Source: Bacteroidales bacterium
GTDB lineage: Bacteria; Bacteroidota; Bacteroidia; Bacteroidales; JAGOPY01
Reading direction: 5' to 3'
NCBI GenBank assembly: GCA_019429045.1
Contig: JAHYJL010000003.1
Span: forward strand, 1-50,829
Length of the DNA: 50,829 nt
Of this stretch, positions 19,324 through 33,402 are shown in pieces. The position numbers were made by a program, and so were the translations under genes. Position 1 is the stretch's first letter. Every line of letters begins with the position of its first letter. The notes beneath the pieces were generated by a model, which ran no database searches, was not told where the DNA came from, and saw nothing but the letters and a program-made list of their open reading frames with translations.

Positions 19324-19731
19324 ATGGTTTTCACCGGGGCTAAATTAGTCGAAGCGAAACTGATTCTGGCAGGTTCTGATCAGCCTATTAAGATATTTTC
19401 GTTTGATTACGGATTTACGCAATACACTGACGAAACCGGCAAGCCAACCGGTTACCCGACCGGGGGTACGATCAATTTTATGATTGAATCCACCCCTGAA
19501 ACGGTACTGATTGACTGGATGCTGGATGCTAAAGCGCTTAAAAACGGTAAGATTGAGATCGGAAATAAAGACAAAGTGATTGAATTTAAGAACGCTGCCT
19601 GCATCCAGTATCATGAATCGTTCAACCATATGGGCGGAGCGCAGCCCATGACGACCAGTTTTACCATTTCGGCAGAAGAAATCAAGGTTGGCGGCGCCCC
19701 TCCGTTTCAGCAAAAAAGGAAAACAGTCTGA
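19324..19731 (+). CDS. tssD: T6SS tube protein Hcp/TssD (copy 2, divergent)
   Basis: QYTDETGKP...GGTINF, DWM, KNGKI, IEFKNAACIQYHESF, FTISAEEI. Confidence 0.85.
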   Translation: MVFTGAKLVEAKLILAGSDQPIKIFSFDYGFTQYTDETGKPTGYPTGGTINFMIESTPETVLIDWMLDAKALKNGKIEIGNKDKVIEFKNAACIQYHESFNHMGGAQPMTTSFTISAEEIKVGGAPPFQQKRKTV

Positions 19732-19803: not shown

Positions 19804-21576
19804 ATGGCCTTAGCACAGAAGGTTAAAGTTTTGGTTGATGGTAAAAATACCATCAATGGCAGGGATGCGGGCGATTTTCTTGACCTGCATCTGCAGCAAA
19901 GCGTTTTCGGGCATCATTCGCTTGAAATTGTCTATCGTCGTGATCATTTTGAAGATGATGGCACATTCATCATGGATAAATCGGACCAGCTCTTCCTGGG
20001 ATGTTCTGTTTCACTTACCATTGAAGGAAGGGAGAATGAAAAGCTGGAATTCGACGGTGTTATCACGGGGGTGAAGGTCCGCAAGATGCATGATGCGCAA
20101 AGCGACACGGTCATCGTGGAAGCATCCAGCCCGGATATCTTTCTGAATGACGGAGAACACTGCAGGACATTTGAGGACAAGACGCTAAAGGCCATTGTCG
20201 ACAAGATCCTCGGTGAATACCAGCTGGACAGCAACAAGGTCAAACCTGAAAATGCCAGCGATGTGCTGTCGTATACCGTTCAATACAAAGAAAGCGCTTT
20301 CGCATTCCTGACAAGGCTGGCTTCCAAAAAGGCCCAGTGGTTTTATTATGATGGCAAGGAAATCATCTTTGGCGCCCGGGCCCAAAAGAAAGTAACGCTC
20401 GAATTTGGCGCCGATCTGTTTAATTTTGATTTCTCCTTGAAACTGGAAGATTTGAATTTCAAATATTTAGCATATGATTACTTTGAAAATAAAGTGATCA
20501 GCAGCGAATCAGGCGATAAGCAGATATCAAACCTTTCCACCAAAGCCAAATATGCCTACGATGTGTCTGAAAAAAAATTCAAGCATGATACGCAAAGCCT
20601 TTACAATCACAGCCTGACCAAATCAAAAGCCCAGGAACACCTCGACTCGCGTGTAAAATTGTTGAAAAGTGCTATGACTGCCGGGTTTATTTCGTGCAGT
20701 GGTTCCAGTGACGATGCTGACCTGGTGGCGGGCTGTGAAATCAATATCATTGAGAACTATGGCCAGGGAGATGATAAAAAACAGGTTGACCATGGTAATT
20801 ATATCATCACCAGCATCAGCCATTCATGTGACAGGACAGGCAACTATCAAAACAGCTTTTCGGCTGTCCCGGCCGAAATTGAAGTACCTCCCTACTCATC
20901 TCCTCATGCCATACCATTCTGCGAAACACAGGCAGCCAAGGTGATAGACAACAACGATCCCGATCAATTGGGAAGGATCCGTGTCCAGTTCATATGGCAA
21001 GAGGAAGAAAACACCATGACCCCCTGGATCAGGCTCGTAACCCCCCATGCCGGGGACCAGAAAGGGTTCTATTTCATACCGGAGATTGGGGAAGAGGTAC
21101 TGGTAGCATTCGAGGGCGGCAACGCCGAAAAGCCATACGTGATCGGCAGCATGTTTCATGGAAAGGCAGCGCCCGACAGCGCCTGGGTAAATGCAGACGA
21201 CGACATAAAAGCCATCCGCACCCGCAGCGGGCATACCATTGAATTCTCCGATAAAGATGGTAGTGAAGAGCTAAAAATCTATGATTACAATAAAGACAAC
21301 TATGTTATCACCCTGCAATCGCATTCCTCCAAAATCAAAATTGAATCAAAAGGAGACATTGAAATGGAGGCTACGGGCGATCTAAAGATAAAAGCTGCCA
21401 ATATAGAGATGGAATCCCAAAGCGACTTTAAGATCAAATCAACCAATGTGAAGGTTGATTCCACGTCACAATATGAAGTAAATGCCATGAATATCAATAA
21501 TAAAGCGAATGCCCAGGTAAAAATTGAAGGTGGGGCCATGATCGAACAAAAAGCCGCTATCATCAAAATAAATTAA
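19804..21576 (+). CDS. vgrG: T6SS spike protein VgrG/TssI
   Basis: VQYKESAFAFLTRLA, DNNDPDQLGRIRVQF, TPWIR, FIPEIGEEVLVAFEGGNAEKP, IRTRSGHTI, beta-helix C-terminus with no toxin extension. Confidence 0.95.
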   Translation: MALAQKVKVLVDGKNTINGRDAGDFLDLHLQQSVFGHHSLEIVYRRDHFEDDGTFIMDKSDQLFLGCSVSLTIEGRENEKLEFDGVITGVKVRKMHDAQSDTVIVEASSPDIFLNDGEHCRTFEDKTLKAIVDKILGEYQLDSNKVKPENASDVLSYTVQYKESAFAFLTRLASKKAQWFYYDGKEIIFGARAQKKVTLEFGADLFNFDFSLKLEDLNFKYLAYDYFENKVISSESGDKQISNLSTKAKYAYDVSEKKFKHDTQSLYNHSLTKSKAQEHLDSRVKLLKSAMTAGFISCSGSSDDADLVAGCEINIIENYGQGDDKKQVDHGNYIITSISHSCDRTGNYQNSFSAVPAEIEVPPYSSPHAIPFCETQAAKVIDNNDPDQLGRIRVQFIWQEEENTMTPWIRLVTPHAGDQKGFYFIPEIGEEVLVAFEGGNAEKPYVIGSMFHGKAAPDSAWVNADDDIKAIRTRSGHTIEFSDKDGSEELKIYDYNKDNYVITLQSHSSKIKIESKGDIEMEATGDLKIKAANIEMESQSDFKIKSTNVKVDSTSQYEVNAMNINNKANAQVKIEGGAMIEQKAAIIKIN

Positions 21577-21577: not shown

Positions 21578-23251
21578 ATGACAACAGCTAAGCGAAGTAT
21601 CATGAATATAAAAATTATACTCCCGTTATTCCTTCTATCATTTATACTAATGGCCACTGCAAATCTTATGGCTGGCGATCCCATTGAAGTTACCATCACC
21701 GATGACCAGGAGATCTGCTACGGGGCAACCCCGGACACCCTGAAATCAAGGGTAACGGGCGGCAGTGGAAATTACACATACCTGTGGCAGTCATCACTGG
21801 ATGGAGATACCTGGAATATTATCCCCGGTGCAGACGACAGTATTTTTGTACCGCCACCGCTCTATGTCACTACCGCCTATCGTCTTATTGTCGATGACGA
21901 TGTGCCTACCGGCAGGGATACATCGAACATCGTGACCATCAGGGTTTATGATGAACTGCTAGCCAACACCATAACGGGTGGCATTACACCGATATGTTAC
22001 GGGGATGATGCCGGAACATTATATTCTCATGCAAGCGGAGGGGCAGGAGGCCATGTCATCAAATGGTACAATGAAAACAATGTATATCTGTTCACAGGCC
22101 CTGTCTTTCCTGTCGGAATTTTATTGGCCACAACGCGCTATTACTATATTGTGGAAGACGATGAATGCGGTTCAGATACAAGTTCAATTTTCTCCTGCAC
22201 TGTTTACCCGCAATTGACGGCTGGAAACATTACAGGGGGCAATTCGCCCATATGTGCCGGCGATAACGGCGGTACGCTAACGGCAAACGCTACAGGGGGC
22301 TCCGGAAATTATAGCATAAAATGGTATAATGAAGCCGGCAATCAACTCGGCACCGGCGAAACTTATAATGTCGGGACACTGAACATCACCACATCTTATT
22401 ATTATATAGTCACTGACGTTGGCGCCGATTGCGGCAGCAAGACCAGCGCATCATTACAGATCGAGGTCGTTGATTTCATTACAGCCAGCATTCTGATCAC
22501 ACCATCCCCACCCAACATTTGCAGTGGCGACCAGGTATCATTTACAGCCATGCCTACCCCGCCGAATCAGCTCAACCAGTATCAATGGTTCATAAATGAT
22601 GAACCCTCAGGCAACGGGCAAGTCATGACAACGGACGAAATCCTGGAAAATGCAACGGTGAAGGTACTTGTAATATACCCTGAAGGAACGTGCGTCACGA
22701 ATAACCCGGCAACCGGAACATATGATTTAACGGTAAGGCCAATTCCTGACACAGCCGCCATTATCTCAAAACCCCTTATTAATCCGGTGGTGCTCATTTA
22801 CCCGGGTGATACAACAGGCATGAATTACAGCTATCAGTGGTACTTAAACGGACAGATCATCACCGGCGCCACATCAAAATATTATTACCACAGCAGCGGG
22901 TTATCATATGGCACATACACCGTCAGGGTGACCAATCAATACCTGTGTTACGTCGAACTGAGCTATGATCATGGTTTGGATAAAAGTGGCCTATTCAGCA
23001 AAGAAGATATCTTCATGATTTTCCCTAACCCTAACCAGGGGGAATTCATGATTATCCTCAACGACGACGTGGTCAGCACAAATTCATATATAGTGCGGAT
23101 TACTGACATTAACGGCAGGGTGAAATATCATGAAACCCTGCCTGCAGGCGACCGGTCGGTCCGGCTGACCGGTTTCAGTAAAGGGATTTACCTGCTTGAA
23201 CTGACACTGGATGATAAACAGCAACAGTGCCGGAAATTAGTGGTATATTAA
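21578..23251 (+). CDS. T9SS type-A sorting-domain protein with Ig-like/SprB-like repeats
   Basis: Signal peptide, repeated ICxG...GGSGNY..W units, YQWY motifs, CTD IFPNP...G...KGIYLL...KLVVY. Starts 1 bp after the vgrG stop (alternative start 21602). Confidence 0.85.
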   Translation: MTTAKRSIMNIKIILPLFLLSFILMATANLMAGDPIEVTITDDQEICYGATPDTLKSRVTGGSGNYTYLWQSSLDGDTWNIIPGADDSIFVPPPLYVTTAYRLIVDDDVPTGRDTSNIVTIRVYDELLANTITGGITPICYGDDAGTLYSHASGGAGGHVIKWYNENNVYLFTGPVFPVGILLATTRYYYIVEDDECGSDTSSIFSCTVYPQLTAGNITGGNSPICAGDNGGTLTANATGGSGNYSIKWYNEAGNQLGTGETYNVGTLNITTSYYYIVTDVGADCGSKTSASLQIEVVDFITASILITPSPPNICSGDQVSFTAMPTPPNQLNQYQWFINDEPSGNGQVMTTDEILENATVKVLVIYPEGTCVTNNPATGTYDLTVRPIPDTAAIISKPLINPVVLIYPGDTTGMNYSYQWYLNGQIITGATSKYYYHSSGLSYGTYTVRVTNQYLCYVELSYDHGLDKSGLFSKEDIFMIFPNPNQGEFMIILNDDVVSTNSYIVRITDINGRVKYHETLPAGDRSVRLTGFSKGIYLLELTLDDKQQQCRKLVVY

Positions 23252-23294
23252 GATTATTAACGAATGTCACAGACATTATAAAAATTTATAAGAA

Positions 23295-23582
23295 ATGGAA
23301 GAATTGGAAATTGTATTGTTTTACCAGGATACGGAATATTCCATGAAGGTGGAAGATCTGACTAAACCTGTAGTTGATGCTATCAAAGAAATCGTAGAAG
23401 CTTTACAGCTTTCATGGCGGGATGGCGGGGGCAATCCCATTACCTACCACCTCGGCCGTACGACAGGCTCTGAGGAGGAAATACTTAAACCGCGCATAAA
23501 AGGGAAAGACCAGACATTATATGACTATAACATCAGGAGCGGCGACAGGCTTATCCTGATCAAGGAAGTGATCGCCGGATAA
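23295..23582 (+). CDS. ubiquitin-like beta-grasp protein (YukD/EsaB-like) ending in Gly
   Basis: 95 aa; QTLYDYNIRSGDRLIL closely parallels ubiquitin RTLSDYNIQKESTLHL; C-terminus ...EVIAG. Confidence 0.85.
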   Translation: MEELEIVLFYQDTEYSMKVEDLTKPVVDAIKEIVEALQLSWRDGGGNPITYHLGRTTGSEEEILKPRIKGKDQTLYDYNIRSGDRLILIKEVIAG

Positions 23583-23610
23583 GTTTTAACGAAAAATAAA
23601 TATCAAGAAG

Positions 23611-24369
23611 ATGGCAAAAATCGTCATTTCAAAAGGAGAAGAAAAAATTAACAACATTTTTGAGGGTTATAAGAAAACCGAGTTATCACCCAGGGGAAGA
23701 AAATTGTTGAAAGAATGGAGAAAGATCGACTTTCTCTGTGAAAACAGCGACGTGATCAAGTACATCATCAGAAAGCGGAACAGGGAGGGGTTGCCGGTTG
23801 AGTATGAGATCATTTATCATCTGAACAGCATCATCGGTGTGAACGAGCCCGTCGAAGCGACAAGGGAAGTGAGCGGGGAAAAGATATCCAGGCCCTGGCG
23901 GCAGCCCGTTTATGGTAAGGAACACCACCTGAGCATCGTTTTACCCAACAATTACCCCGGAGCGTTCGGAGGAAACCCTGAATTTGTCATGTTGTCAGAC
24001 ACCTGGCACCCCAATATCCGCGCGACGGGTAAATTCAAGGGCAGGATATGCCTTAACGACAGGGATCTTGGCGTTGCCTGCGGCCTGGATGAAAGGATCA
24101 TCCGGGTAGGTAAATACCTGCAATACCAAACCTATTGGGCCATCGACAGCTACCCGTGGCCGGAAGACCAGGTTGTTGCAGAATGGATAAGGGAAGAAGC
24201 TGAACCTGCCGGCTGGGTGAATGTCAACGAAGGGATCTATACTGATAATTCGAAACTGTACAAAACACCACTACTGTTTCATAAAAACTACCTGCAGGAG
24301 ATCCAGGATATTGGTTCACCCGGAGGTAAAAACACCGGGAACGCTCCTATTACTTTAAAAATGAATTAG
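23611..24369 (+). CDS. ubiquitin-conjugating enzyme E2 (UBC fold)
   Basis: RKLLKEW helix, LSIVLPNNYP...NPEF, WHPNI...GRICL with candidate catalytic Cys147. Confidence 0.9.
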   Translation: MAKIVISKGEEKINNIFEGYKKTELSPRGRKLLKEWRKIDFLCENSDVIKYIIRKRNREGLPVEYEIIYHLNSIIGVNEPVEATREVSGEKISRPWRQPVYGKEHHLSIVLPNNYPGAFGGNPEFVMLSDTWHPNIRATGKFKGRICLNDRDLGVACGLDERIIRVGKYLQYQTYWAIDSYPWPEDQVVAEWIREEAEPAGWVNVNEGIYTDNSKLYKTPLLFHKNYLQEIQDIGSPGGKNTGNAPITLKMN

Positions 24370-24419
24370 ATCGTATAACAGCGGATTAGAATGTAAACTA
24401 TCTTATAAATTCAACCGGA

Positions 24420-25826
24420 ATGAAAATATTTATTGTAATCCTGGTTTCACTGCTTTCCTTCTCCCTGATGGCCCAGGAAGCCGAAGTGCTGATGGTGGGG
24501 GAAAACCTGCTCGGATCCAAAGACATCGCATACAGCAGAAAAATTACGATCAGCGTCACGCCAAATGTAACCTATAAAATAGATGAAAATAAAAATGAGT
24601 TCCTGATCATTCATTTCGCGACAAAATGGTATCAGAACAATGAAATATTTGTTCCAAAGACGGAAAAGATATATATGATCAACGATCCGGAATATTTTAT
24701 GCAGAACTATGGCAGATCAAACAGCAATTGGAAGGTTCCCAAGCGTGTTCAGGATTTAATCTCAAATACCTTTGAGCTATCACCAGGCGCCATTTTTGAC
24801 TATACATTGGAAGAATTACCCGATATTTTCATTAATAAAACAAAACCAATTACTGTCTCCATTACGAAATACAAGAACGAAACCATCGTTCTCGTCGCCT
24901 CTTTTTACATGGGAACAGAGAAGTCTTTTTTATTCTCAGGGTTCACGGTCGATCAGAAAGCCGAACCGCTCATCTGGAAATTCAAGCTGCCGCCGCCGTC
25001 AGACAGGCCCGAATGTGGTGAGAAATACGATTACTATGTGTCCCGCATCAATAAATTACAAGCCAAACAAAAACTGCAGCAACTGGGTGAAATATTCAAG
25101 ACAGGGCTGAATAAATCAGAGCAGGCACTTAGAAGTGAGAAACAGGAACTGGAATCGATCAAAATGCTTAACCAGAGCCTGCAGGATCTGAATAGTGAAA
25201 TTACAGATGATGTTTCTAAAATGGGTTGTGAAAACCTTAACAGTATCAAAACCAATATTGAAGGATACCTTAAATCGATATCTTCAAACGAGATTGATAT
25301 CAGCTTCAGGTTAAGGGATCTCAATAAGAAACTGGATTCTCTCGGCCAAATTGGAGTGATGACGGTAAAAAGACGTGAATCATTAAGTGACAATAGTATT
25401 GTCATTAGGGAAATATATCACGGCTTAAAGAAATTACAATGGGAATTCAATCAGACGAATGCTTTCGACAGTATTCTGCTGGCAGATATCAAAGCCAGGC
25501 TGGATAATATTTACAAGATCGAAGATGAGAATTTCCAGGGGATGATACAAAACAAGGCCATCACATCTGAAGTTGCCTTGCTTAAAGATGAATTTGACAA
25601 TTATTATAATGCTTCTATAATCATTATCAACAATATCAGAGCCGAAAGCAGGGGAGAAAAAACGACCGGCAGTTTTGCTGACCATTCTGCAAAGGCAAAA
25701 AGGAAGAAGTTTTCGCCCTGGATTATTGTTTCCGGTCTGATTATCGTACTGACGATCATTGGGATAAAATTCCGTGAGCCGATCAAGCGGGCATTATCGT
25801 TGAAAAAGAAGGTAAAATATAAATAA
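24420..25826 (+). CDS. single-pass membrane protein with periplasmic beta domain and coiled coil
   Basis: Signal peptide, helical heptad-rich middle, C-terminal TM (PWIIVSGLIIVLTIIGI) and basic tail; ectodomain resembles that of the next gene. Confidence 0.75.
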   Translation: MKIFIVILVSLLSFSLMAQEAEVLMVGENLLGSKDIAYSRKITISVTPNVTYKIDENKNEFLIIHFATKWYQNNEIFVPKTEKIYMINDPEYFMQNYGRSNSNWKVPKRVQDLISNTFELSPGAIFDYTLEELPDIFINKTKPITVSITKYKNETIVLVASFYMGTEKSFLFSGFTVDQKAEPLIWKFKLPPPSDRPECGEKYDYYVSRINKLQAKQKLQQLGEIFKTGLNKSEQALRSEKQELESIKMLNQSLQDLNSEITDDVSKMGCENLNSIKTNIEGYLKSISSNEIDISFRLRDLNKKLDSLGQIGVMTVKRRESLSDNSIVIREIYHGLKKLQWEFNQTNAFDSILLADIKARLDNIYKIEDENFQGMIQNKAITSEVALLKDEFDNYYNASIIIINNIRAESRGEKTTGSFADHSAKAKRKKFSPWIIVSGLIIVLTIIGIKFREPIKRALSLKKKVKYK

Positions 25827-25837
25827 CAGTCATATTG

Positions 25838-28783
25838 ATGATAAAATATTTTCATTTATCTTTTTTGCTCTTCCTGGTCACCGGACCGGCATGGGCACAG
25901 CAGGAGATCGGTCCAGGCAAAACAAACCTGCAAAAACAACAGCTCATTTTTGCCAAAACCATTTGTGATATAACACCACAGGTTCAGTATGACACAAACA
26001 AACGGCATGAATTGACCATTAAATTCTATGCTGACTGGAAAAATAAAGATGGAGAACCGTTTCAAAACAACGAGCATTATTTGTACCTGATAGACAATTT
26101 TGACAAGTGGATGATTGGTATTAAGGAAAATGATAAATACTTGATCAATTTTTCCCCCAGACAAAAACAGTCAATTCTACAGGCCACTGATCAAATCACA
26201 GAAAATGGAATGAGTATCAAGCCGGTCTACTCAAATGGATATCTTGAACTGATAAATGTGTCGCAACCGCTGAAACTCAGGATTGACGGAAAGGATGGTG
26301 ACCTGATAACCCTGAATTTATTTTTCACCTATGTCACTGCTAAACCGAAAAACAAGAATATCGAAGATATTCCCCGGCAGCTTGCATGGTCATTTTCGCT
26401 ACCAGGTAAAACACCCGTTCCCGATGAACATGTGGCCATAATGCAGGAAGAAACAGAAATAGCCGAACAGGAAATCAAAGACACAATAAAGAAAGAGAAG
26501 GAGAAGGAGATAATCGCTCCCAGACCTGAGCCCCCGGTCAAAGAAAAGGTAAAGAAAGAAGATACTTCGCGAAAGGATATTGAAAATAAAATTGATTCAC
26601 TGGCGAAAAAATATAATGTGATATATCATGAACTGGCTTCACAGTTCGAATCAATGAAGGGAATAATCAACCCGGGGATGGCTGATATCGGAAACCGCAT
26701 CAGACAGAACGATGAGAGGTTTTCAATGGTTCAGGAAATGTTCTCCGTTAAAGATCAGCTTTCGGAGGAGTTGTTTGAGAATATGTCACTGGGGCTAACT
26801 TCCTGTAAGTCCGATAATCAATATTGCGACAGTTCCAATACTGTGTATCTGACAACCATCCGCACTTTCAAATCAAAGATCGAACAGGAAATCAGCCATT
26901 TGCTATCTGAATTTCAGAACATTGACAGAAGGACCATGCCACTCAAAGGGACAGAGATCCAAAATAAGCTGAAAGATCTTTTCAGTGAAGTCTCCGTCAT
27001 TGAAGCCACGCTGGAAAAATTACAAACATCAATCAATGCCCAGAATAAAGACATTTACAGTCTTTTTATGGAACTCGAGGGAAAGGTGGAGTTGGCGGAA
27101 AAGATCAGTGCATTTGACCTGGCATTCAATCAGGTTAACCTCCAGCTTGAAGGCCTGGTAGTGGATTACGACAATCTCAAAAGTAATTTTGAAAACAAGA
27201 AATTCAGCAAAGGATATTTCAAGTGGGTCAGGCAGTCTTATTTAAAAAAGGCTGATAATATTATTAATTCTTATGCTGTCATAAATTCTACATTTGATTC
27301 CTTATCACATAGCAAAAGGAGCTCTTTCCAGCAATATGATCTTGATCCGCTGATTGAGTCCCAGCAGGGATTTGAAAAAGAAAGGTCTGGCTTTGTCAAC
27401 CGTGTTGAAATATTGAAAGCCAGCATCATAGAGTCGGAATACGAACCTTTTCCTTTTTTATACACGGCCCTGGCTATTATATTCATCTCTATTCTCATCT
27501 TCGGGACTTATGTGTACCTGATGGCATTACGAAGAAAAAAACTGAAAATCAGCCCGATTTTGTCAACATCACGACCTGCTAAAAATGCCATAAAAATACA
27601 GCCCACTATGGTTACAGCATCAAACAAGGGAAAAGGGCTGGCGGATTATCTGAAACCCAACAAGGACCGCTACCTTGAGTTGAACATGTCGCATGAATGG
27701 GCGGATAGTTGCGTCAAAAATGTCTATTTTGAGCGGGACTGCATTATCAAGACCTATCGATTCTTCGAAGATTCCATTCATTCGGTCGGAACGACCGAGC
27801 ACTCCGCCAATGAAACCGGTGGTTATCTGATTGGCCAGTGGGACTACAATCCTGATGAACCTGATAAATACGACGTATCGCTGGAAGATTTCATCGAACC
27901 GGGAGATGATGCTTCTTTTTCAAAGTATCAATTGAATTTCGGCGCCAAAATAGGGGTGAAACTGCAATCTGTGCTCGAGAACATGCGGCAAAAATCGAAC
28001 CGCGATTTTGTCATGACGGCCTGGTTTCACAGTCACCCGGGATTGAAAATATTTCTTTCGGATTACGATCTCCAGGTTCAGAATGATTTTGCAGGAACCC
28101 AGAACAAGCACCGGATGCTGGCTTTGGTACTGGATCCTTATACACCTGCCTGGGATCTGGGTATTTTTCCTTACAAGGCCAATGGCGATATGAACAACGC
28201 CGCTGATTCCATACGCTTTTTCAGTTTCGATTCCATTTATCACTGGGCGCTTACCCCTCCCCGCCGGGAAATAGTTCAGTTTGATAACTATTTTGCCCAC
28301 GACATCTCCAGGGCTTATTCCGGGACCTCTATCCGGAATATCCTGTTCAGCCTCCCCGGCATCCTGGAGATCAAACGTTTTATTGAGAATGCAAAACTCC
28401 AAACCGGCAAAAACTTCACAACTGGCTTATTTTCAGGCTTTCAACATAACCCCGGATCACATTATGCCGACCTGGCCATTGAACAGGTTTTAAGTGAGGA
28501 AGACTGGCAACAGATCAGCAAGCCTGATGAAAAGAAGATCATAGGGGCTATTTTCTTCCTGGCTTCTGTTTCGGAAGATAATGCAAAAGCGCTGAATGAT
28601 AAAATTATACAGTTAACGGAGACATACGGGAAGAACCTGGTCATCGCTTTATTTTCTCCTGCTGATGAAGGTCTTTCCCTTTTACCTGCTGACATTATCA
28701 CCAGGTCGTTGATCTCAGCACCCGACAAGTCAGCACGCGTTCCATTGCCGGAACTGATTGAATGGACCAGAAAACGCAAGTAA
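25838..28783 (+). CDS. membrane-anchored JAB/JAMM (MPN+) metallo-isopeptidase with a second degenerate MPN repeat
   Basis: Signal peptide, coiled coil, TM near 27450-27530, then ETGGYLIG...AWFHSHPGLKIFLSDYD (E...HxH...S..D) and ALVLDP. Confidence 0.88.
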   Translation: MIKYFHLSFLLFLVTGPAWAQQEIGPGKTNLQKQQLIFAKTICDITPQVQYDTNKRHELTIKFYADWKNKDGEPFQNNEHYLYLIDNFDKWMIGIKENDKYLINFSPRQKQSILQATDQITENGMSIKPVYSNGYLELINVSQPLKLRIDGKDGDLITLNLFFTYVTAKPKNKNIEDIPRQLAWSFSLPGKTPVPDEHVAIMQEETEIAEQEIKDTIKKEKEKEIIAPRPEPPVKEKVKKEDTSRKDIENKIDSLAKKYNVIYHELASQFESMKGIINPGMADIGNRIRQNDERFSMVQEMFSVKDQLSEELFENMSLGLTSCKSDNQYCDSSNTVYLTTIRTFKSKIEQEISHLLSEFQNIDRRTMPLKGTEIQNKLKDLFSEVSVIEATLEKLQTSINAQNKDIYSLFMELEGKVELAEKISAFDLAFNQVNLQLEGLVVDYDNLKSNFENKKFSKGYFKWVRQSYLKKADNIINSYAVINSTFDSLSHSKRSSFQQYDLDPLIESQQGFEKERSGFVNRVEILKASIIESEYEPFPFLYTALAIIFISILIFGTYVYLMALRRKKLKISPILSTSRPAKNAIKIQPTMVTASNKGKGLADYLKPNKDRYLELNMSHEWADSCVKNVYFERDCIIKTYRFFEDSIHSVGTTEHSANETGGYLIGQWDYNPDEPDKYDVSLEDFIEPGDDASFSKYQLNFGAKIGVKLQSVLENMRQKSNRDFVMTAWFHSHPGLKIFLSDYDLQVQNDFAGTQNKHRMLALVLDPYTPAWDLGIFPYKANGDMNNAADSIRFFSFDSIYHWALTPPRREIVQFDNYFAHDISRAYSGTSIRNILFSLPGILEIKRFIENAKLQTGKNFTTGLFSGFQHNPGSHYADLAIEQVLSEEDWQQISKPDEKKIIGAIFFLASVSEDNAKALNDKIIQLTETYGKNLVIALFSPADEGLSLLPADIITRSLISAPDKSARVPLPELIEWTRKRK

Positions 28784-28801
28784 TGTTAACCCGATGATGA
28801 A

Positions 28802-31291
28802 ATGAAACTGCTCAATCCCTGTCATATGCAACTACATCTATTAATGTCGCACATTTTCCGGATGATTAAATTACCGGGACTGGTTTTGCTGGTATTTCTG
28901 ATTACTTTCATTACGCATGCACAAAAGCGTGCAGATGCCGATCTGCAAATCATCGACATTCAGATGAAGCCTGAAAACCTGGCCAAGCTAAGTGATACGA
29001 TGACCGTTAAGTTCAACCTGATGAGACCGGGAGGGACTGAAGATGCAGACAGAATTCTGGAATTGTCACCAGGGGATTCCATGAGGGTTTCTGTGAAGGA
29101 ATTCCTCGGCAGAAAGGAGGAGAGGATAAAACCCGTATTTATCCCGGGCAGCCTGAAAAAGTTAAGGGATCATGGTAAAATGAGATCTGAAATCCCGGAA
29201 GACTATTACATTTCATTGCTGATTGACAAAAGCGGTTCTATCAATCAGCATGACATGGATAAAATAAAATCGGCTATTTATGAGCTGGCCGGGATGGTTA
29301 AAACCGGCAATTTATTTTATTCCTGGTTTGATGAAGATATTTCCGAAAGCAGGGTGGTTACCCAGGCCAACATAAACGATCTCGATTTCCATGTTTCCAG
29401 CACCGGCAGTTCCTGCATGTACAATGCCATTTTCACGAAAATGATGGAATTTGATTCCACGAAAGATGTGCCCAATCTTCAGTATGAGGGGGCTTACAGG
29501 CGAAACAGGGCTGTTGAGATGGCGCCGGATGGTAATAAATTCCTGGTTATCATTACAGATGGCCGTAATGACATACAACAGAACCCAAAATATCACAACA
29601 CCCTGTTCAGGGTCATCCGCGAACCGGAACTCATCAATACCGCCGAATTATACAGAAACAAATTATTCATTTACGCTATCAGTTTCGGCGGGGAATTGCT
29701 GGATGAAGCTTTCCTGGAGATGATAACGGCCGCCAGCGGCAATCGTTATGGCAATATACTGACCAGTCCCGACAATATTCTGGAGGACTTTAACAGCCTT
29801 GGTAAAAAAATCGCGGAGGAAAAATGGGACTATGAAATTCGTTTAAGGTATGAAAATCCAAAAAAATACAGGGGAGAGACACGTACCCTGCATTTAGAAA
29901 TCAACTCCTATAAACCGGATCTCTTCGTTGCATACGGTCAGGCAACCTATGGGGAAGGTTACGGCAACTCCCTTTACCCGATGACCATTGGTGAGCCAAA
30001 ACGCCAGGTCATGGTCATGCTCGGAGGCCTTGTCGCAGGGATCATCATCTTTCTGCTGGTGATGTTCATTATACAATTGATCATCCCTTTGATCAAGAAT
30101 AAGATATTTGTCATAAAATATGTCAAGAGATATAAACCACGGGAGCACGAATTATTCAAAGAATGCCAGTTTTGCGGAGATCCGCTGAATCCCGGCGACA
30201 AGGTGGTGGTCAAATGCAAGCATGTCGTTCACCATTTATGCTGGAAAGAATATGGACATATGTGCCCGGAATATGGGCAAAATTGCAACGATGGCCAGGA
30301 AAATTTCTTTGACATTACAGATCCCTTCTCCAAAAAGAATAAGATCTATTACCTGAGCTGGGTGCTATATGGCATGCTGGGCGGTTTCCTGTCCTGGTTG
30401 CTATATGTGGCACTGATCAAGTGGGAACAGGTCTTTGCATTCAGCATATGGCTAACCGAGTGGATCAGGCCAACCATTACAGAAAGCAACCTCGGTTCTT
30501 TCAAGTTTAAGATAGCGCCATTCCTGATCGTGGGCACGCTGATGGGATTCTTTCTTACCGCGTTCTTCTCCTTTGTGGAGGAATACCGCCATAAAAACCT
30601 GATGATTTACGGCAAGATACTGCTCAGAAGTATCCTGGGCGGGGTTGCCGGATTTGTCGCGTTTCTATTGGGAAGCATTATCCTGATCCTGATCAACAGG
30701 CCCGCTACAGTCTATTTCGATTGGATCCCGTGGATATTCTTCGGAGCCGCCATTGGCCTGGTCATGTCCATTAAAACCACTATTGTCTGGAAGCACGGGC
30801 TTATCGGCGGATTGATCTCCATCATCTTTTGTTTTATCGTTATTTATGCCTTTATCGGGGAGCTTGAGGAAAATGCCATCCTGGTAGGTATTATGATATA
30901 CGCGGCAGGATTAGGTGTATCGATTGCCACCATCAGGCTGCAGTCAGAGCACTTCTTCCTGAAGATACTGCAGGGGAAAAAGAATCAGGATATCATCCCG
31001 GTCCATAAGTGGATGAGTTCCTCCGGAGGCCATAATGAAGTGTATCTGGGCAGAAGTTTCGCCTGCGAGATTCAGATGAACTGGGAAAAAAACAATGAAG
31101 AGATCGCACAAAAGCATTCCAAGATGTATATCAATACCAGGGGGGTGCCGGTTATCACCAACCTGGAAATCGGCAAGACAACCAATTTCAACGAACGGTT
31201 TGATCTGGATACCGGAAAAGAATACGAGCTTTACAATGGCGTGAGGTTTAAAATCGGACAAACTGTATTTCAATATATTGAGACAGATTAG
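28802..31291 (+). CDS. vWA - TM - RING finger - multi-TM - FHA-like protein (candidate membrane E3 ligase)
   Basis: MIDAS DKSGS and IITDG; RING-like CQFC-x13-CKHVVHHLCW-x6-CP-x5-C (30164-30286); several TM helices; C-terminal LGRS...H...ELYNGVRFKIG. Start may be 28862. Confidence 0.82.
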   Translation: MKLLNPCHMQLHLLMSHIFRMIKLPGLVLLVFLITFITHAQKRADADLQIIDIQMKPENLAKLSDTMTVKFNLMRPGGTEDADRILELSPGDSMRVSVKEFLGRKEERIKPVFIPGSLKKLRDHGKMRSEIPEDYYISLLIDKSGSINQHDMDKIKSAIYELAGMVKTGNLFYSWFDEDISESRVVTQANINDLDFHVSSTGSSCMYNAIFTKMMEFDSTKDVPNLQYEGAYRRNRAVEMAPDGNKFLVIITDGRNDIQQNPKYHNTLFRVIREPELINTAELYRNKLFIYAISFGGELLDEAFLEMITAASGNRYGNILTSPDNILEDFNSLGKKIAEEKWDYEIRLRYENPKKYRGETRTLHLEINSYKPDLFVAYGQATYGEGYGNSLYPMTIGEPKRQVMVMLGGLVAGIIIFLLVMFIIQLIIPLIKNKIFVIKYVKRYKPREHELFKECQFCGDPLNPGDKVVVKCKHVVHHLCWKEYGHMCPEYGQNCNDGQENFFDITDPFSKKNKIYYLSWVLYGMLGGFLSWLLYVALIKWEQVFAFSIWLTEWIRPTITESNLGSFKFKIAPFLIVGTLMGFFLTAFFSFVEEYRHKNLMIYGKILLRSILGGVAGFVAFLLGSIILILINRPATVYFDWIPWIFFGAAIGLVMSIKTTIVWKHGLIGGLISIIFCFIVIYAFIGELEENAILVGIMIYAAGLGVSIATIRLQSEHFFLKILQGKKNQDIIPVHKWMSSSGGHNEVYLGRSFACEIQMNWEKNNEEIAQKHSKMYINTRGVPVITNLEIGKTTNFNERFDLDTGKEYELYNGVRFKIGQTVFQYIETD

Positions 31292-31312
31292 CATTTAAAA
31301 TATCATCTTCAA

Positions 31313-32170
31313 ATGAGAAAAGCATTCATAACATCGCTCCTGACGATTGTCGTCACCCTCGGTCTTTCGGCTTCCGACCTGAAAGGTTACCCCAGGAAAT
31401 CCCTGTTTGTGAACCTGTCAGCTGATTATTCACGGTTGTATAATAAAACGATTTATAACGACTCGCCATGGAACGCCCAGGGGGGGCTTGGTTACAGTTT
31501 CGAAGCAGGGTACCTGATGCGGTTGCGAAAATCAGTGAGCCTCGGTTTCGGCGCAGGCCTGAGTTCATACTACAGTGAAATCAAGATGGATTCATATCAA
31601 ACAACATATCCAACTCTTGATGTTGACGGGGATAGTTATACCGAGTTCATCCAGGCAAATGGATTGGTGGAATCAACCCGGATCACCACATTAGACATAC
31701 CGGTATTTCTTGAACTTGGCAATGCCAACACCAGCAAGGTCAGCTATTATGTCAGGCTTGGAGTAAAGATATCAACGCCTGTCGCGTATAATTTCACTCA
31801 TTCAGGCAGCATGTCGGTCAGTGGAAACTACGCGCAATATTTTGTCCGGCTGGAAGGCATCCCGGAGCTGGGTTTTGTCGATAATGCCCCGGTAATCAAA
31901 TCATCGGAATATGATCTCAACCCGGTGAACCTCTCGGTATTGTTGGCCGGCGGCATCACCATTCCTGTTTCGGATTACATCATATTCAAGCTGGGGGCCG
32001 ATCTCAACTATGGCCTTATGAATATTTCATCTTATGAGCAGGAAGTGTCAAAGGATCCCGGTTTTATCAATATTTACAATAACCTGCTGACAGAGCCGAA
32101 CAGTAAAACAATCTGGCAGTCTGTAGGGTTTGAATTCGGGATCATATACATCCTGAAATCCATTTATTGA
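31313..32170 (+). CDS. outer-membrane beta-barrel protein (PorT/OMP_b-brl-like)
   Basis: Signal peptide, LDIPVFLE, DLNYGLMNI, terminal SVGFEFGIIY strand. Confidence 0.75.
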   Translation: MRKAFITSLLTIVVTLGLSASDLKGYPRKSLFVNLSADYSRLYNKTIYNDSPWNAQGGLGYSFEAGYLMRLRKSVSLGFGAGLSSYYSEIKMDSYQTTYPTLDVDGDSYTEFIQANGLVESTRITTLDIPVFLELGNANTSKVSYYVRLGVKISTPVAYNFTHSGSMSVSGNYAQYFVRLEGIPELGFVDNAPVIKSSEYDLNPVNLSVLLAGGITIPVSDYIIFKLGADLNYGLMNISSYEQEVSKDPGFINIYNNLLTEPNSKTIWQSVGFEFGIIYILKSIY

Positions 32171-32196: not shown

Positions 32197-33402
32197 ATGA
32201 AGGGAATATCTATCGGCAATCGAAACAGGAAATGGGGAGAGGAGGTCTTTTCCCTTTTGTCATGGTTTGATGAAACAAAGGTCAGAAATGCCAGTGTTAT
32301 GGTCGTTGGTGCCGGCGCATTGGGTAATGAGGTCATTAAAAACCTGGCGCTGTTTGGCATTGGCAATATCCTGATCGTCGACTTTGATACCGTAGAACAC
32401 AGCAACCTTTGCCGGTCGGTATTGTTCCGTCCCGAGGATGCCGAAGGCAATGCCATGAAAGCGGAAGTGGCCGCCAAAAGGATCAGCGAGATCAATCCAT
32501 ATATAAACGTAAGTTACATTGCCGGGGATATCGGCACCGATGTGGGCCTGGGCCATATCCGGAAAATGGATCTTGTCATCGGCTGCCTCGACAGCCGGCT
32601 GGCGCGTTACCTGATCAACCGGAGCTGCTTCAGGGCCAATAAAACATGGATAGACGGAGGTATTGAAAACCTGGAAGGCAACGTGAGGATATTCACGCCC
32701 GGGGTCAATTGTTATGAATGCAGCCTGAACGAAGCCGACCTTGAAATGCTGTTTTACCGGACAGGATGTCCTGACATAGCCAAAATAAATGTGGTCCAGG
32801 GAAGGATTGCCACCACGCCTATCAGCTCATCCATCATCGGCGCCATACAAACGCAGGAGGCGTTGAAATTCATCCACGGTTTCAATGAAAATTCGGAGAA
32901 ATTCAAATGCAATACCCTGAACGGAAAAATGCTCAAATATGACGGCATGTACCTGACCCTGAAAAGCTACAGGCTGGAAAATTACGAAGAAGATTGCATG
33001 AGCCACGAAGTCTGGGAACCTGTAGTGAGAGGGGAAGGATTAAGCGCCGGTATGACCATCGCACAAGCCCTTGAAACCCTGAAGGGTTTGCTCGGATGCG
33101 ACGACGTTACTATTAACCTGATGAATAACAAGCTGATATATCAGCTTGTCCCGGAATCGACCGATGAGGAGATCAATGTGATCCTGCCCGAATCCAAAGT
33201 GTCTGCGTATATAGAAGAAAACAACATAACCAAAGATCCCAGGGAAAGAGTCTTTCAAAGATTTTACGAAAGCATTGATGCTGATTTCCCGTATCCGCAC
33301 CTGACACTCAGGGAAATTGGTATACCTTATTTTGACGTCCTGAACATAACGGCAGGATCCGAAGTGCAATATGTTGAACTTTCAGGCGATGAAACCCACT
33401 AA
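32197..33402 (+). CDS. ThiF/MoeB-family E1-like ubiquitin-activating enzyme
   Basis: VVGAGALGNE, DFDTVEHSNLCRSVLF, KAE, GCLDSRLAR, CYEC, candidate catalytic Cys191 (RTGCP), C-terminal extension. Confidence 0.92.
   Translation: MKGISIGNRNRKWGEEVFSLLSWFDETKVRNASVMVVGAGALGNEVIKNLALFGIGNILIVDFDTVEHSNLCRSVLFRPEDAEGNAMKAEVAAKRISEINPYINVSYIAGDIGTDVGLGHIRKMDLVIGCLDSRLARYLINRSCFRANKTWIDGGIENLEGNVRIFTPGVNCYECSLNEADLEMLFYRTGCPDIAKINVVQGRIATTPISSSIIGAIQTQEALKFIHGFNENSEKFKCNTLNGKMLKYDGMYLTLKSYRLENYEEDCMSHEVWEPVVRGEGLSAGMTIAQALETLKGLLGCDDVTINLMNNKLIYQLVPESTDEEINVILPESKVSAYIEENNITKDPRERVFQRFYESIDADFPYPHLTLREIGIPYFDVLNITAGSEVQYVELSGDETH

What the first reader, a model, noticed from the sequence alone, without database searches (positions are those of the whole stretch)
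21578..32170. No recognisable TssN/O/P/Q/R membrane complex; a different envelope-spanning gene set occupies the locus
Established: Bacteroidota T6SSiii uses TssNOPQR in place of TssJLM. Seen: all tail and baseplate genes are present, but I recognise none of these five. Instead there are two single-pass coiled-coil proteins, a polytopic vWA protein, an outer-membrane barrel and a T9SS-exported protein. Inference: these could form a new trans-envelope anchor that doubles as the E3/deconjugase platform, implying a new T6SS architecture. Alternatively, the machine is anchored by genes elsewhere.
Basis: inference. Interest (0 to 1): 0.7.

Follow-up and report, generated by a model that had tools for sequence, protein, structure and literature searches.

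The report
T6SS with ubiquitin-type membrane module
This bacterial "spear gun" (type VI secretion) locus lacks the five usual membrane-anchor genes of its phylum and carries a conserved set of membrane proteins wired to a ubiquitin-like tagging system, a widespread variant that I found in no paper I could search.

Summary
Window 14327-37803 is one tightly packed T6SSiii-type operon (ClpV, TssB, TssC, 2 Hcp, VgrG, TssG, TssK, TssE, TssF).

- **No canonical anchor found.** Pfam models for TssN, TssO/Q and TssR, a TssP profile, and TssL/TssM models found no counterpart in the 94%-complete genome.
- **What sits there instead.** Between VgrG and TssG lie a T9SS-sorted Ig-repeat protein, a YukD-like Ubl ending in Gly, an E2, a single-pass protein (K), a single-pass membrane JAB peptidase (L), a 7-TM vWA/RING/FHA-like protein (M), an OM barrel (N) and an E1.
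- **Conserved elsewhere.** The order Ubl-E2-…-L-M-E1-TssG-TssK-TssE-TssF recurs in about 70 of 80 loci from other Bacteroidales species. None of those 80 genomes has TssN.
- **Synteny.** Canonical loci read TssG-TssN-TssK-TssO-TssE-TssF. Here TssN and TssO are simply absent from that block.
- **No remote homology detected.** Profile-profile comparisons with TssN/O/Q/P/R gave at most 2.5% probability.

Most likely L and M, with clade-specific partners K and N, form a different membrane complex with built-in Ubl ligase and peptidase. Docking to TssK is untested because the complex prediction never ran. H, K and N are not conserved family-wide. This scan has noted the same lineage before, on other DNA.

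The parts
14327..16897 (+). ClpV/TssH AAA+ ATPase
   Evidence: AAA_2 191 bits; TIGR03345 602.8 bits, below its equivalog cut-off.
16930..17376 (+). TssB (small sheath subunit)
   Evidence: weak T6SS_VipA match, 20 bits; phmmer hits to TssB of canonical loci, E 1e-31 to 1e-48.
17420..18805 (+). TssC, Bacteroidota (iii) type
   Evidence: PF17541, 568 bits. Canonical loci score 729-770 bits.
18862..19731 (+). Two Hcp/TssD genes (18862-19254 and 19324-19731)
   Evidence: PF17642, 116 and 111 bits.
19804..21576 (+). VgrG/TssI
   Evidence: Phage_base_V and Phage_GPD; TIGR01646 131.7 bits.
21578..23251 (+). H_557: secreted Ig-repeat protein with a T9SS C-terminal sorting domain. Clade-specific and probably accessory.
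   Evidence: Ig_7, SprB and Por_Secre_tail. N-terminal hydrophobic segment; homologue in 5 of 80 loci; 6 by iterated HMM.
23295..23582 (+). I_95: YukD-like ubiquitin-like protein that ends in ...IAG
   Evidence: YukD 19.9 bits, below cut-off. I93, A94 and G95 are invariant in the 41-sequence alignment, and nearly all of the 70 listed homologues stop right after the Gly.
23611..24369 (+). J_252: E2-like conjugating enzyme
   Evidence: UQ_con 16.8 bits, below cut-off. An HPN...C motif is readable in the translation; homologue in 72 of 80 loci.
24420..25826 (+). K_468: signal peptide, periplasmic domain plus helical region, one C-terminal TM (431-449) and a 19-residue Lys-rich tail
   Evidence: N-terminal region paralogous to L (21% identity over 314 columns, E 6e-5). 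Only 1 of 80 loci has a phmmer homologue. Gut-clade loci hold a protein of similar architecture at this position with no detectable sequence similarity.
25835..28783 (+). L_982: signal peptide, periplasmic beta domain, about 340 residues of long helices, one TM, then a cytoplasmic active JAB/MPN domain and a second alpha/beta domain
   Evidence: AF2: overall pLDDT 67, with the cytoplasmic part mostly above 80. Foldseek: Caldiarchaeum Rpn11 homologue 6fno_B, E 6.9e-6, TMt 0.71. VIA: Cap3 9ild_A, Z 12.8. The JAMM residues E, H, H, S and D are invariant in 50 of 50. Homologue in 75 of 80 loci.
28802..31291 (+). M_829: signal/anchor, beta-sandwich, vWA, beta-sandwich, TM helix, RING-H2-like finger, six TM helices and a C-terminal FHA-like all-beta domain
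   Evidence: AF2: pLDDT 85.6, pTM 0.72. vWA region: Z 18.3 to ArnB 8s05_B. All eight Zn-ligand columns are invariant in 72 of 72. PDB profile hit to the RCHY1 RING, E 4.5e-4. FHA 15.1 bits and Yop-YscD_cpl 15.4 bits, both below cut-off. M is the only ORF with 4 or more TM segments in the labelled span of all 80 loci.
31313..32170 (+). N_285: outer-membrane beta-barrel protein
   Evidence: OMP_b-brl_2, 34.1 bits. The family was found in 36 of 80 loci by iterated HMM. An ORF sits at this position in 34 of 75 loci.
32197..33402 (+). O_401: E1-like adenylating enzyme (ThiF family) with a C-terminal extension
   Evidence: ThiF 181.9 bits. Homologue in 77 of 80 loci.
33371..34324 (+). P_317: TssG (iii type)
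   Evidence: 29% identity, E 3e-35, to the ORF that flanks TssN in a canonical locus; hits to the same positional gene in three further loci.
34364..35449 (+). TssK
   Evidence: TIGR03353 45.4 bits, below cut-off; phmmer E 9e-47 to 9e-65 to canonical TssK.
35449..35928 (+). TssE
   Evidence: GPW_gp25 38.3 bits.
35956..37803 (+). TssF
   Evidence: T6SS_TssF 28.4 bits. E down to 4e-88 to canonical TssF.
41101..42330 (-). PAAR (41770-42330) and DUF4123 adaptor (41101-41757): the start of an effector module on the opposite strand
   Evidence: PAAR_motif 100 bits; DUF4123 87.5 bits.

Best explanation
The locus belongs to a large Bacteroidales lineage of T6SSiii-derived machines. In this lineage the TssN-Q-O-P-R membrane complex has been replaced by a different membrane module fused to a ubiquitin-like conjugation system.

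Shown here:
- The usual anchor genes were not found.
- The replacement genes sit inside the T6SS operon, in conserved order.
- Their domain make-up and predicted topology.

Inferred:
- M is the inner-membrane hub and the functional analogue of TssN. Its vWA and beta-sandwich domains face the periplasm. Its RING finger and FHA-like domain face the baseplate.
- L, and in this clade its paralogue K, are type-I single-pass proteins. Their long periplasmic helices and beta heads would build the periplasmic part, as TssO, TssQ and TssP do in canonical systems.
- In about half of the loci, this one included, a small outer-membrane barrel (N) supplies the outer-membrane contact.
- E1 and E2 charge the Gly-ended Ubl. 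M's RING ligates it to a target at the membrane face: a baseplate protein, a sheath protein or the complex itself. L's membrane-tethered JAB removes it.
- Tagging would therefore switch docking, firing or recycling on and off.
- H, the T9SS-sorted Ig-repeat protein, is a clade-specific surface accessory and not a core part.
For: - Absence in this genome. TssN, TssO/Q, two TssR domains, DotU and IcmF gave no hit at E <= 1. TssP gave only generic PKD hits.
- Absence is not an assembly artefact. TssN was found in 0 of 50 plus 0 of 30 genomes with the same locus type, including a complete Bacteroides hominis chromosome and two isolate genomes. TssR_VWA was found in 0 of 50. The TssN model does work: it found 7 of 401 genomes, 6 above cut-off, in the order sample.
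- Exclusive distribution in one sample of 401 genomes. TssC was found in 10, TssN above cut-off in 6, and the M family in 4. No genome had both TssN and M.
- Synteny. Among 80 loci, phmmer found M in 80, E1 in 77, L in 75, TssG in 74, E2 in 72, Ubl in 69, TssE in 68 and TssF in 67, always in the same order.
- Canonical loci read TssG-TssN-TssK-TssO-TssE-TssF or TssN-TssK-TssG-TssQ-TssO-TssP-TssR. The window reads E1-TssG-TssK-TssE-TssF.
- M is the only protein with 4 or more TM segments in the labelled span of all 80 loci.
- Catalytic residues are kept. RING ligands are invariant in 72 of 72 and JAMM residues in 50 of 50. The Ubl's last three residues, I-A-G, are invariant in the 41-sequence alignment.
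- Gene spacing from VgrG to TssF runs from a 32-base overlap to a 50-base gap (coordinates).
- Bongiovanni et al. 2024 (PMC10781749; sections 6, 9, 11 and part 1 of 12 read) show that a T6SSiii needs such a complex and that TssN's cytoplasmic domain recruits TssK.
Against: - No direct evidence of contact with TssK or any baseplate protein.
- Across clades, the periplasmic and outer-membrane parts are not conserved in sequence:
  - K has a phmmer homologue in 1 of 80 loci.
  - HMMs of the two gut-clade proteins at K's position hit no window protein at E <= 10.
  - N is present in 36 of 80 loci.
- Fold searches aligned only the vWA region of M, so a TssN/EccD-like fold in its membrane part is not excluded.
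- The periplasmic half of the L model has low confidence, pLDDT about 40-65.
- M could be a purely regulatory E3 ligase.
- No RNA data are available.
Confidence: 0.55

Rival explanations
1. The cassette only regulates. The Ubl system tags T6SS parts or cargo for quality control, turnover or effector loading. The machine is anchored by unrecognised proteins, or it works without a classical trans-envelope complex.
For: - E1, E2, RING and JAB are enzymes of a signalling pathway.
- The envelope-facing partners differ between clades.
- Gut-clade loci add a membrane Ser/Thr kinase in 52 of 80 loci and a glucosaminidase-LysM protein in 58 of 80, which are typical regulatory or accessory genes.
Against: - L and M are integral membrane proteins with large periplasmic parts. 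A cytoplasmic tagging system would not need these.
- No other polytopic protein lies in any of the 80 loci.
- TssN is missing from all 80 genomes.
- All five membrane-complex proteins are essential in Bacteroides fragilis (PMC10781749, section 6).
Confidence: 0.25
2. K, L, M and N are extremely diverged homologues of TssO/Q, TssN and TssR, rearranged and fused to Ubl enzymes. On this reading the complex is the known one in disguise.
For: - There are loose parallels. TssR has a vWA-like domain, TssO and TssQ are single-pass helical periplasmic proteins, and TssN is polytopic with a C-terminal cytoplasmic domain of ubiquitin-like fold (PMC10781749, sections 6 and 12).
- The membrane part of M was not covered by the fold searches.
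Against: - hhalign probabilities are all low: M against TssN 2.5%, M against TssR 0.08%, Ubl against TssN 0.28%, L against TssO/Q 0.46%, K against TssO/Q 0.48%, H against TssP 1.8%.
- M matches generic VWA, not TssR_VWA.
- Topologies differ. TssO/Q/P carry an N-terminal anchor, whereas K and L have a signal peptide and a C-terminal anchor. TssR is a lipoprotein, whereas M has seven TM helices. TssN's cytoplasmic domain is a beta-grasp, whereas M's is modelled as all-beta.
Confidence: 0.1
3. The T6SS is decaying after losing its anchor, and an unrelated Ubl-type defence island happened to insert into it.
For: Ubl/E1/E2/JAB operons act in anti-phage defence elsewhere. The 6A-MBL cap2_3 model touched E1 and L weakly.
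Against: - The same order recurs across about 70 of 80 species-level genomes from several families.
- The frames are intact and the catalytic residues invariant.
- The M family has 297 clusters at E <= 1e-30.
- A chance insertion would not be kept in register with TssG-TssK-TssE-TssF.
Confidence: 0.05

Closest known systems
T6SSiii of Bacteroidota with the TssN-Q-O-P-R membrane complex (Bongiovanni et al. 2024, PMC10781749)
   Same: - iii-type TssC and Hcp families.
- Homologous TssG, TssK, TssE, TssF, ClpV and VgrG.
- The same baseplate gene block.
- In a quick TssF tree, the window's TssF groups with canonical TssF.
   Different: - All five membrane-complex genes are missing.
- TssN and TssO are absent from the TssG-TssK-TssE-TssF block.
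- A Ubl/E2/K/L/M/N/E1 cassette lies between VgrG and TssG.
- That paper states the complex, or part of it, is in all T6SSiii and is the only type in the phylum. This lineage does not fit that statement.
Prokaryotic Ubl-E1-E2-RING-JAB operons (Burroughs, Iyer & Aravind 2011, Mol Biosyst; recalled, not readable here). The solved example is the Caldiarchaeum subterraneum Ub/Rpn11 system (PDB 6fno).
   Same: - Gly-ended Ubl, ThiF-type E1, E2 with an HPN...C motif, RING-H2-like finger and JAMM peptidase.
- The L JAB domain matches the Caldiarchaeum Rpn11 homologue best in Foldseek.
   Different: - Here the E3 and the peptidase are integral membrane proteins with large periplasmic domains.
- The whole set is embedded in a contractile secretion operon.
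- I could not check whether the 2011 paper already noted the T6SS linkage.
T6SSi TssJ-L-M complex with the Fha1/PpkA threonine-phosphorylation pathway, and the T3SS inner-ring protein SctD (YscD/PrgH) with its cytoplasmic FHA-like domain
   Same: - An FHA-fold domain at the cytoplasmic face of a secretion-system membrane protein (Yop-YscD_cpl E 0.023; FHA E 0.033).
- Gut-clade loci add a membrane Ser/Thr kinase.
   Different: - No DotU or IcmF.
- The phosphothreonine-binding Arg is kept in only 8 of 72 sequences and the Ser in 1 of 72.
- No Pkinase gene was found in this genome.
- The domain is probably phospho-independent here.
T7SS EccD / YukD (EsaB)
   Same: - The Ubl is YukD-like (below cut-off).
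- TssN's baseplate-binding domain is reported to superimpose on EccD's ubiquitin-like domain (PMC10781749, section 6).
   Different: - Here the Ubl is a free protein with an exposed C-terminal Gly and a full conjugation cascade.
- No sequence similarity to TssN.

Membership tests
T6SSiii membrane complex (TssNQOPR) | TssN: five-TM protein with a cytoplasmic beta-grasp domain (Pfam PF17555), encoded beside tssK and tssG | tested here: not met
   - No hit at E <= 1 in the genome, and none among the operon proteins.
- The TssG-TssK junction holds no gene; the gap is 39 bases.
- hhalign: M against TssN 2.5%, Ubl against TssN 0.28%.
- TssN found in 0 of 80 sister genomes. Positive control: 7 of 401.
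T6SSiii membrane complex (TssNQOPR) | TssO and TssQ: small proteins with an N-terminal TM helix and a helical periplasmic domain (PF17561, which also detects TssQ weakly) | tested here: not met
   - No hit at E <= 1 in the genome.
- hhalign: L against TssO/Q 0.46%, K against TssO/Q 0.48%.
- K and L have the opposite anchoring: a signal peptide plus a C-terminal TM.
T6SSiii membrane complex (TssNQOPR) | TssP: about 300 aa, with an N-terminal TM, two PKD domains and a C-terminal domain | tested here: not met
   - A two-sequence TssP profile gave 18 matches in the genome. All were confined to the PKD region and lay inside ORFs of 429-2389 aa on other contigs.
- hhalign: H against TssP 1.8%.
T6SSiii membrane complex (TssNQOPR) | TssR: about 800-aa lipoprotein with the TssR N-barrel, TssR_M, TssR_VWA and TssR_C domains (PF17643, PF20780, PF20782, PF20781) | tested here: not met
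   - PF20782 and PF17643 gave no hit at E <= 1 in the genome.
- No TssR family appeared among the operon proteins at E <= 0.01. PF20780 and PF20781 were tested only in that way.
- hhalign: M against TssR 0.08%.
- TssR_VWA found in 0 of 50 sister genomes.
T6SSiii membrane complex (TssNQOPR) | Fold-level similarity of the new membrane proteins to TssN/EccD or to TssO/Q/P/R | tested here: inconclusive
   - Foldseek and VIA searches with the whole M model aligned only its vWA region.
- Searches with L aligned the JAB domain and generic helices.
T6SSiii tail and baseplate | iii-type TssC (PF17541) and Hcp (PF17642), plus TssB, TssE, TssF, TssG, TssK, VgrG and ClpV | tested here: met
   - TssC 568 bits; Hcp 116 and 111 bits.
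- The other genes are homologous to those of four canonical loci.
T6SSi membrane complex (TssJLM) | TssL (DotU, PF09850) and TssM (IcmF-related, PF06761) | tested here: not met
   No hit at E <= 1 in the genome. TssJ was not tested.
Ubiquitin-like conjugation system with a RING E3 | Ubl with a free C-terminal Gly, E1 adenylating enzyme, E2 with a catalytic Cys, RING with eight Zn ligands, and a JAMM isopeptidase | tested here: met
   - The Ubl's final I-A-G is invariant in the 41-sequence alignment.
- ThiF 181.9 bits.
- The eight RING ligand columns are invariant in 72 of 72, and the JAMM residues E, H, H, S and D in 50 of 50.
- The JAB fold matches Rpn11 and Cap3.
- The E2 rests on a sub-threshold UQ_con hit (16.8 bits) and an HPN...C motif read by eye.
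- Conjugation itself is not shown.
FHA domain (phosphothreonine-binding) | FHA beta-sandwich with the conserved Gly-Arg, Ser-x-x-His and Asn-Gly residues (residue pattern recalled) | tested here: inconclusive
   - Pfam FHA 15.1 bits against a cut-off of 20.7, though over the full model length.
- AF2 gives an all-beta domain at 718-827.
- Gly is kept in 72 of 72, His in 71 of 72 and Asn in 66 of 72. Arg is kept in only 8 of 72 and Ser in 1 of 72.
- Conclusion: the fold is likely; phosphopeptide binding is unlikely.

The most novel reading that the evidence does not exclude
The free YukD-like Ubl is the detachable counterpart of TssN's built-in ubiquitin-like, TssK-binding domain.

- M's RING would ligate the Ubl to the membrane module or to the baseplate, creating the docking site.
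- L's JAB would erase that site.
- Assembly and firing of a contractile weapon would then be gated by a reversible ubiquitin-type switch.

If true, this would link T7SS EccD/YukD, TssN and eukaryote-like ubiquitination in one evolutionary series. It would also be a fourth, independent solution for anchoring a T6SS.
Probability: 0.15. Interest if true: 0.92.

Novelty: new variant of a known kind. Interest (0 to 1): 0.8.

Why it matters
- **It does not fit the current view of T6SSiii.** That view holds that TssNQOPR, or part of it, accompanies every T6SSiii and is the only membrane complex in Bacteroidota (PMC10781749, sections 11 and 12). At least 81 species-level genomes here have T6SSiii-type tail and baseplate genes with no TssN detected and another conserved membrane module. 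Detection models that require the known complex would probably miss them.
- **It would be the first secretion machine with its own E1-E2-RING-JAB cascade.** Both the ligase and the peptidase are set in the membrane.
- **It is testable.** Carriers include cultured gut and rumen-type bacteria (Palleniella intestinalis, Xylanibacter muris, Bacteroides hominis).
- **This window is an informative member.** Its TssC and TssF are closer to canonical T6SSiii than those of the gut clade. The swap of the anchor module therefore shows up cleanly against an otherwise canonical backbone.

Tried and rejected
- **Complex prediction.** The job was TssK (alignment A8) against the FHA-like domain of M (A3, residues 705-829). 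The tool's queue was full at every attempt, so the job never ran and there is no result of any kind.
- **Fold searches of M.** Only the vWA region was aligned. Nothing can be said about the fold of its membrane part or its C-terminal domain from these searches.
- **Fold searches of L.** The helical part gave only generic coiled-coil and helical-bundle rows with Z up to about 10.5.
- **ESM Atlas with K.** No usable hit.
- **NCBIfam.** It has no T6SSiii-specific models. Canonical TssN, TssO and TssG gave no hits either.
- **Sequencing runs.** No RNA holder was listed.
- **Promoter and terminator scan.** A sigma-70 consensus is not informative for this phylum.
- **Careful TssF tree.** It did not finish in two 300-second runs. 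Only the quick tree is reported.
- **Iterated HMM from K.** It drifted into the L family, so it cannot count K homologues.
- **Literature.** Five full-text searches and look-ups inside PMC10942478, PMC11901371, PMC3417536 and PMC11601603 found no description of a Ubl-linked T6SS. Burroughs et al. 2011 and 2012 are not held, so prior mention there cannot be excluded.
- **Idea rejected.** TssG was briefly considered a possible TssN analogue. It has no TM segment and is homologous to canonical TssG.

Full report
**1. What is in the window**

The window is one whole contig of a 2.89-Mb assembly in 239 contigs, 94.4% complete.

From 14327 to 37803 the + strand carries one tightly packed gene row. 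From VgrG to TssF the spacing runs from a 32-base overlap to a 50-base gap. In order, the genes are:

- ClpV, TssB, TssC (PF17541, 568 bits), two Hcp (PF17642) and VgrG.
- Eight genes of other kinds, described in section 2.
- A 317-aa protein without a Pfam match, then TssK, TssE and TssF.

The 317-aa protein is TssG. It is 29% identical (E 3e-35) to the gene that flanks TssN in a canonical locus.

A PAAR gene and a DUF4123 adaptor lie downstream on the other strand.

**2. The eight inserted genes**

| Gene | Coordinates | Features |
|---|---|---|
| H | 21578-23251 | Signal peptide, Ig_7/SprB repeats, T9SS sorting domain |
| I | 23295-23582 | 95-aa YukD-like beta-grasp protein (19.9 bits, below cut-off) ending ...IAG |
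| J | 23611-24369 | Weak UQ_con match; HPN...C motif read by eye |
| K | 24420-25826 | Signal peptide, one TM at 431-449, 19-residue Lys-rich tail |
| L | 25835-28783 | See below |
| M | 28802-31291 | See below |
| N | 31313-32170 | OMP_b-brl_2 barrel |
| O | 32197-33402 | ThiF-type E1, 181.9 bits |

Protein I. Its last three residues, I-A-G, are invariant in the 41-sequence alignment. Nearly all of the 70 homologues listed stop right after the Gly.

Protein L. The AF2 model has an overall pLDDT of 67, with the cytoplasmic part mostly above 80.
- It has a signal peptide and a periplasmic beta domain related to K's. The two share 21% identity over 314 columns, E 6e-5.
- About 340 residues of long helices follow, then one TM and a cytoplasmic JAB domain.
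- The JAB domain matches the Caldiarchaeum Rpn11 homologue (Foldseek E 6.9e-6, TMt 0.71) and Cap3 (Z 12.8).
- All five JAMM residues are invariant in 50 of 50 family members.
- A second alpha/beta domain follows the JAB domain.

Protein M. It modelled well: pLDDT 85.6, pTM 0.72, from 72 sequences. Its parts, in order:
- A signal or anchor helix.
- A beta-sandwich.
- A vWA domain (Z 18.3 to ArnB).
- A second beta-sandwich.
- A long TM helix.
- A RING-H2-like finger. Its eight ligand columns are invariant in 72 of 72. The nearest solved sequence is the RCHY1 RING, E 4.5e-4.
- Six TM helices.
- An all-beta C-terminal domain. It weakly matches FHA (E 0.033, over the full model length) and the FHA-like cytoplasmic domain of the T3SS ring protein YscD (E 0.023).

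The topology is inferred from the signal peptide and the helix count. On that reading the vWA domain faces the periplasm and the RING and FHA-like domains face the cytoplasm.

The FHA-like domain keeps Gly, His and Asn. It keeps the phosphothreonine-binding Arg in only 8 of 72 sequences and the Ser in 1 of 72. The genome also has no Pkinase match at E <= 1e-5. The domain is therefore probably a phospho-independent docking module.

The "coiled coil" of K, however, rests only on its kinship to L and on weak matches.

**3. Are TssN/O/P/Q/R really missing?**

I first recovered canonical loci to learn what to look for. The TssN model (PF17555) found 7 of 401 genomes sampled evenly from the same order, 6 of them above cut-off.

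Three of these loci read as follows:
- TssN-TssK-TssG-TssQ-TssO-TssP-TssR in two genomes.
- TssG-TssN-TssK-TssO-TssE-TssF in one complete genome.

These orders match the synteny described by Bongiovanni et al. 2024 (PMC10781749; sections 6, 9, 11 and part 1 of 12 read).

These loci also gave the Pfam accessions of TssR (PF17643, PF20780-20782). They showed that PF17561 also picks up TssQ, and that TssP is an N-terminally anchored PKD protein.

Against the window's genome:
- TssN, TssO, TssR_VWA and the TssR N-terminal domain gave nothing at E <= 1.
- The T6SSi families DotU and IcmF gave nothing either.
- A TssP profile gave only PKD-repeat matches inside large ORFs on other contigs.

In the window, TssK follows TssG after 39 bases, and TssE overlaps the end of TssK. 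TssN and TssO are therefore absent from an otherwise conserved block.

**4. Is this an assembly artefact or a lone oddity?** It is neither.

Family size:
- The M protein has 44 word-indexed relatives.
- It has 453, 380 and 297 representative clusters at E <= 1e-3, 1e-10 and 1e-30 among 1.84 billion proteins.

Genomic context:
- A scan of one genome per species found 89 encoding stretches. The best 80 were kept with up to 10 kb on each side.
- The carriers include Prevotellaceae, Muribaculaceae, Rikenellaceae, Bacteroidaceae, Barnesiellaceae, Dysgonomonadaceae and Lentimicrobiaceae.
- They include the isolates Palleniella intestinalis and Xylanibacter muris and a complete Bacteroides hominis chromosome.

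phmmer counts at E <= 1e-5 with the window's proteins, out of 80 loci:

| Protein | Loci |
|---|---|
| M | 80 |
| E1 | 77 |
| L | 75 |
| TssG | 74 |
| E2 | 72 |
| Ubl | 69 |
| TssE | 68 |
| TssF | 67 |
| VgrG | 21 |
| TssK | 13 |
| H | 5 |
| N | 5 |
| K | 1 |

The genes are always in the window's order. Counts for genes far from M are limited by the 10-kb reach and by contig ends. TssK is simply divergent: a positional TssK was found in 66 loci.

Tests for the canonical anchor in these genomes:
- TssN was found in 0 of 50 and 0 of 30.
- TssR_VWA was found in 0 of 50. In five others, nothing scored above cut-off.

In the even sample of 401 genomes:
- TssC was found in 10, TssN above cut-off in 6, and the M family in 4. 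No genome had both TssN and M.
- Six genomes had TssC with TssN, and two had TssC with M.
- The two with TssC alone and the two with M alone are assemblies of 330-700 contigs.

**5. Could the new proteins be remote homologues of the old ones?**

phmmer of all window proteins against the ORFs of four canonical loci hit only tail, baseplate, ClpV, VgrG and PAAR genes.

| hhalign comparison | Probability |
|---|---|
| M family vs TssN | 2.5% |
| M family vs TssR | 0.08% |
| Ubl vs TssN | 0.28% |
| L family vs TssO/Q | 0.46% |
| K vs TssO/Q | 0.48% |
| H vs TssP | 1.8% |

The TssR and TssP profiles held only two sequences each, so these tests are weak for very remote kinship.

The architectures also differ, as set out in the membership table.

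Fold searches covered only the vWA region of M and the JAB domain of L. A structural link for the membrane parts therefore stays open. I put that rival at about 0.1.

**6. What is conserved and what is not**

M is the only protein with four or more TM segments inside the labelled span of all 80 loci. L and M are near-universal.

The rest of the envelope set varies by clade:
- In 56 gut-clade loci, E2 is followed by a secreted protein of about 350 aa and then a protein of 400-600 aa. Most of the latter have a signal peptide and a TM near residue 310-380.
- HMMs of both gut-clade families hit none of the 28 window proteins tested, even at E <= 10.
- The barrel family of N occurs in 36 of 80 loci by iterated HMM. 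An ORF sits between M and E1 in 34 of 75 loci.
- H occurs in 5-6 loci.
- Gut-clade loci further add a glucosaminidase-LysM protein in 58 of 80 and a membrane Ser/Thr kinase in 52 of 80. Among the 34 loci with at least 4 kb held past TssF, the counts are 33 and 32.
- The window has neither of these.

**7. Place of this window in the lineage**

Its TssC scores 568 bits on the iii-type model. Canonical loci score 729-770, and a gut-clade member scores 352.

In a quick TssF tree, the window and its 94%-identical sister locus group with five canonical TssF (SH-aLRT 100), apart from the 64 other Ubl-type loci. The branches are long, the root is arbitrary and the careful search did not finish.

So this is a backbone close to canonical T6SSiii that carries the new module. 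It is either an early branch of the lineage or a module exchange.

**8. Mechanism**

The best reading is a replacement membrane complex with M as hub and L (plus K here) as periplasmic struts. N would be the outer-membrane contact in this clade. A Ubl ligase and peptidase pair would be built into the cytoplasmic face. I give this 0.55.

- Shown: the absence of the canonical anchor genes, synteny, domain make-up and conserved catalytic residues.
- Inferred: complex formation, docking of TssK and the role of tagging.

The main rival, at 0.25, is that the cassette only regulates and the anchor is something else.

The one decisive computation within reach was a controlled multimer prediction of TssK with M's cytoplasmic domain. 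It could not be run because the tool's queue stayed full.

**9. Novelty**

Reviews and surveys that I could read list only GA1-GA3 and TssNQOPR (PMC10942478 and PMC11901371, passages). Five full-text searches found no Ubl-linked T6SS.

Burroughs et al. 2011 may have described the Ubl/E1/E2/RING/JAB operon type. That is my recollection only; the paper is not held.

Earlier agents of this scan reported the same lineage on other genomes: notes e1-2125555 and e1-5023343. My results agree with them and add five things:
- Explicit tests for all five membrane-complex families.
- The 0-of-80 TssN count.
- The clean loss of TssN and TssO from the baseplate block.
- The split between the conserved core and the clade-specific envelope parts.
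- The near-canonical position of this window's backbone.

Noticed in passing
window 10392-11875 (-): A bacterial archaeo-eukaryotic release-factor-like protein (baeRF_family3, 145.5 bits) lies directly upstream of a ribosome hibernation/S30AE-family protein. Both are divergent from the T6SS operon.
   Followed up: no
window 39024-42796 (-): An effector-type module faces the T6SS operon: PAAR, a DUF4123 adaptor, three ORFs without family matches (134, 357 and 194 aa; the last has an N-terminal hydrophobic segment), and a 142-aa ORF with a T9SS sorting domain.
   Followed up: no
window 38093-38962 (+): A 289-aa ORF right after TssF has no family match, no TM segment and no homologue in any of the 80 related loci.
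   Followed up: partly
L034:17855-22252 and 50-odd further loci: Gut-clade Ubl-type T6SS loci carry three more genes after TssF: a PG_binding_1 protein, a glucosaminidase-LysM protein (58 of 80 loci) and a membrane Ser/Thr kinase (52 of 80 loci). The window's genome has no Pkinase match at all.
   Followed up: partly
L019, L025, L056, L059: Some loci hold a second, upstream I_95-like ORF. Three of these ORFs lack the terminal IAG.
   Followed up: no
alignment A3, columns of window residues 142-146: The vWA MIDAS motif D-x-S-x-S is complete in the window's clade, but its first Ser is deleted in 56 of 72 family members. Metal-dependent ligand binding by the periplasmic vWA domain may therefore be limited to this clade.
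   Followed up: partly
L003 (whole locus): In this related MAG locus, L, M, TssG, TssK and TssF are each split into several ORFs. This suggests frameshifts or assembly errors.
   Followed up: no
window 47539-48759 (+): A full-length serpin (342.6 bits), uncommon in bacteria.
   Followed up: no
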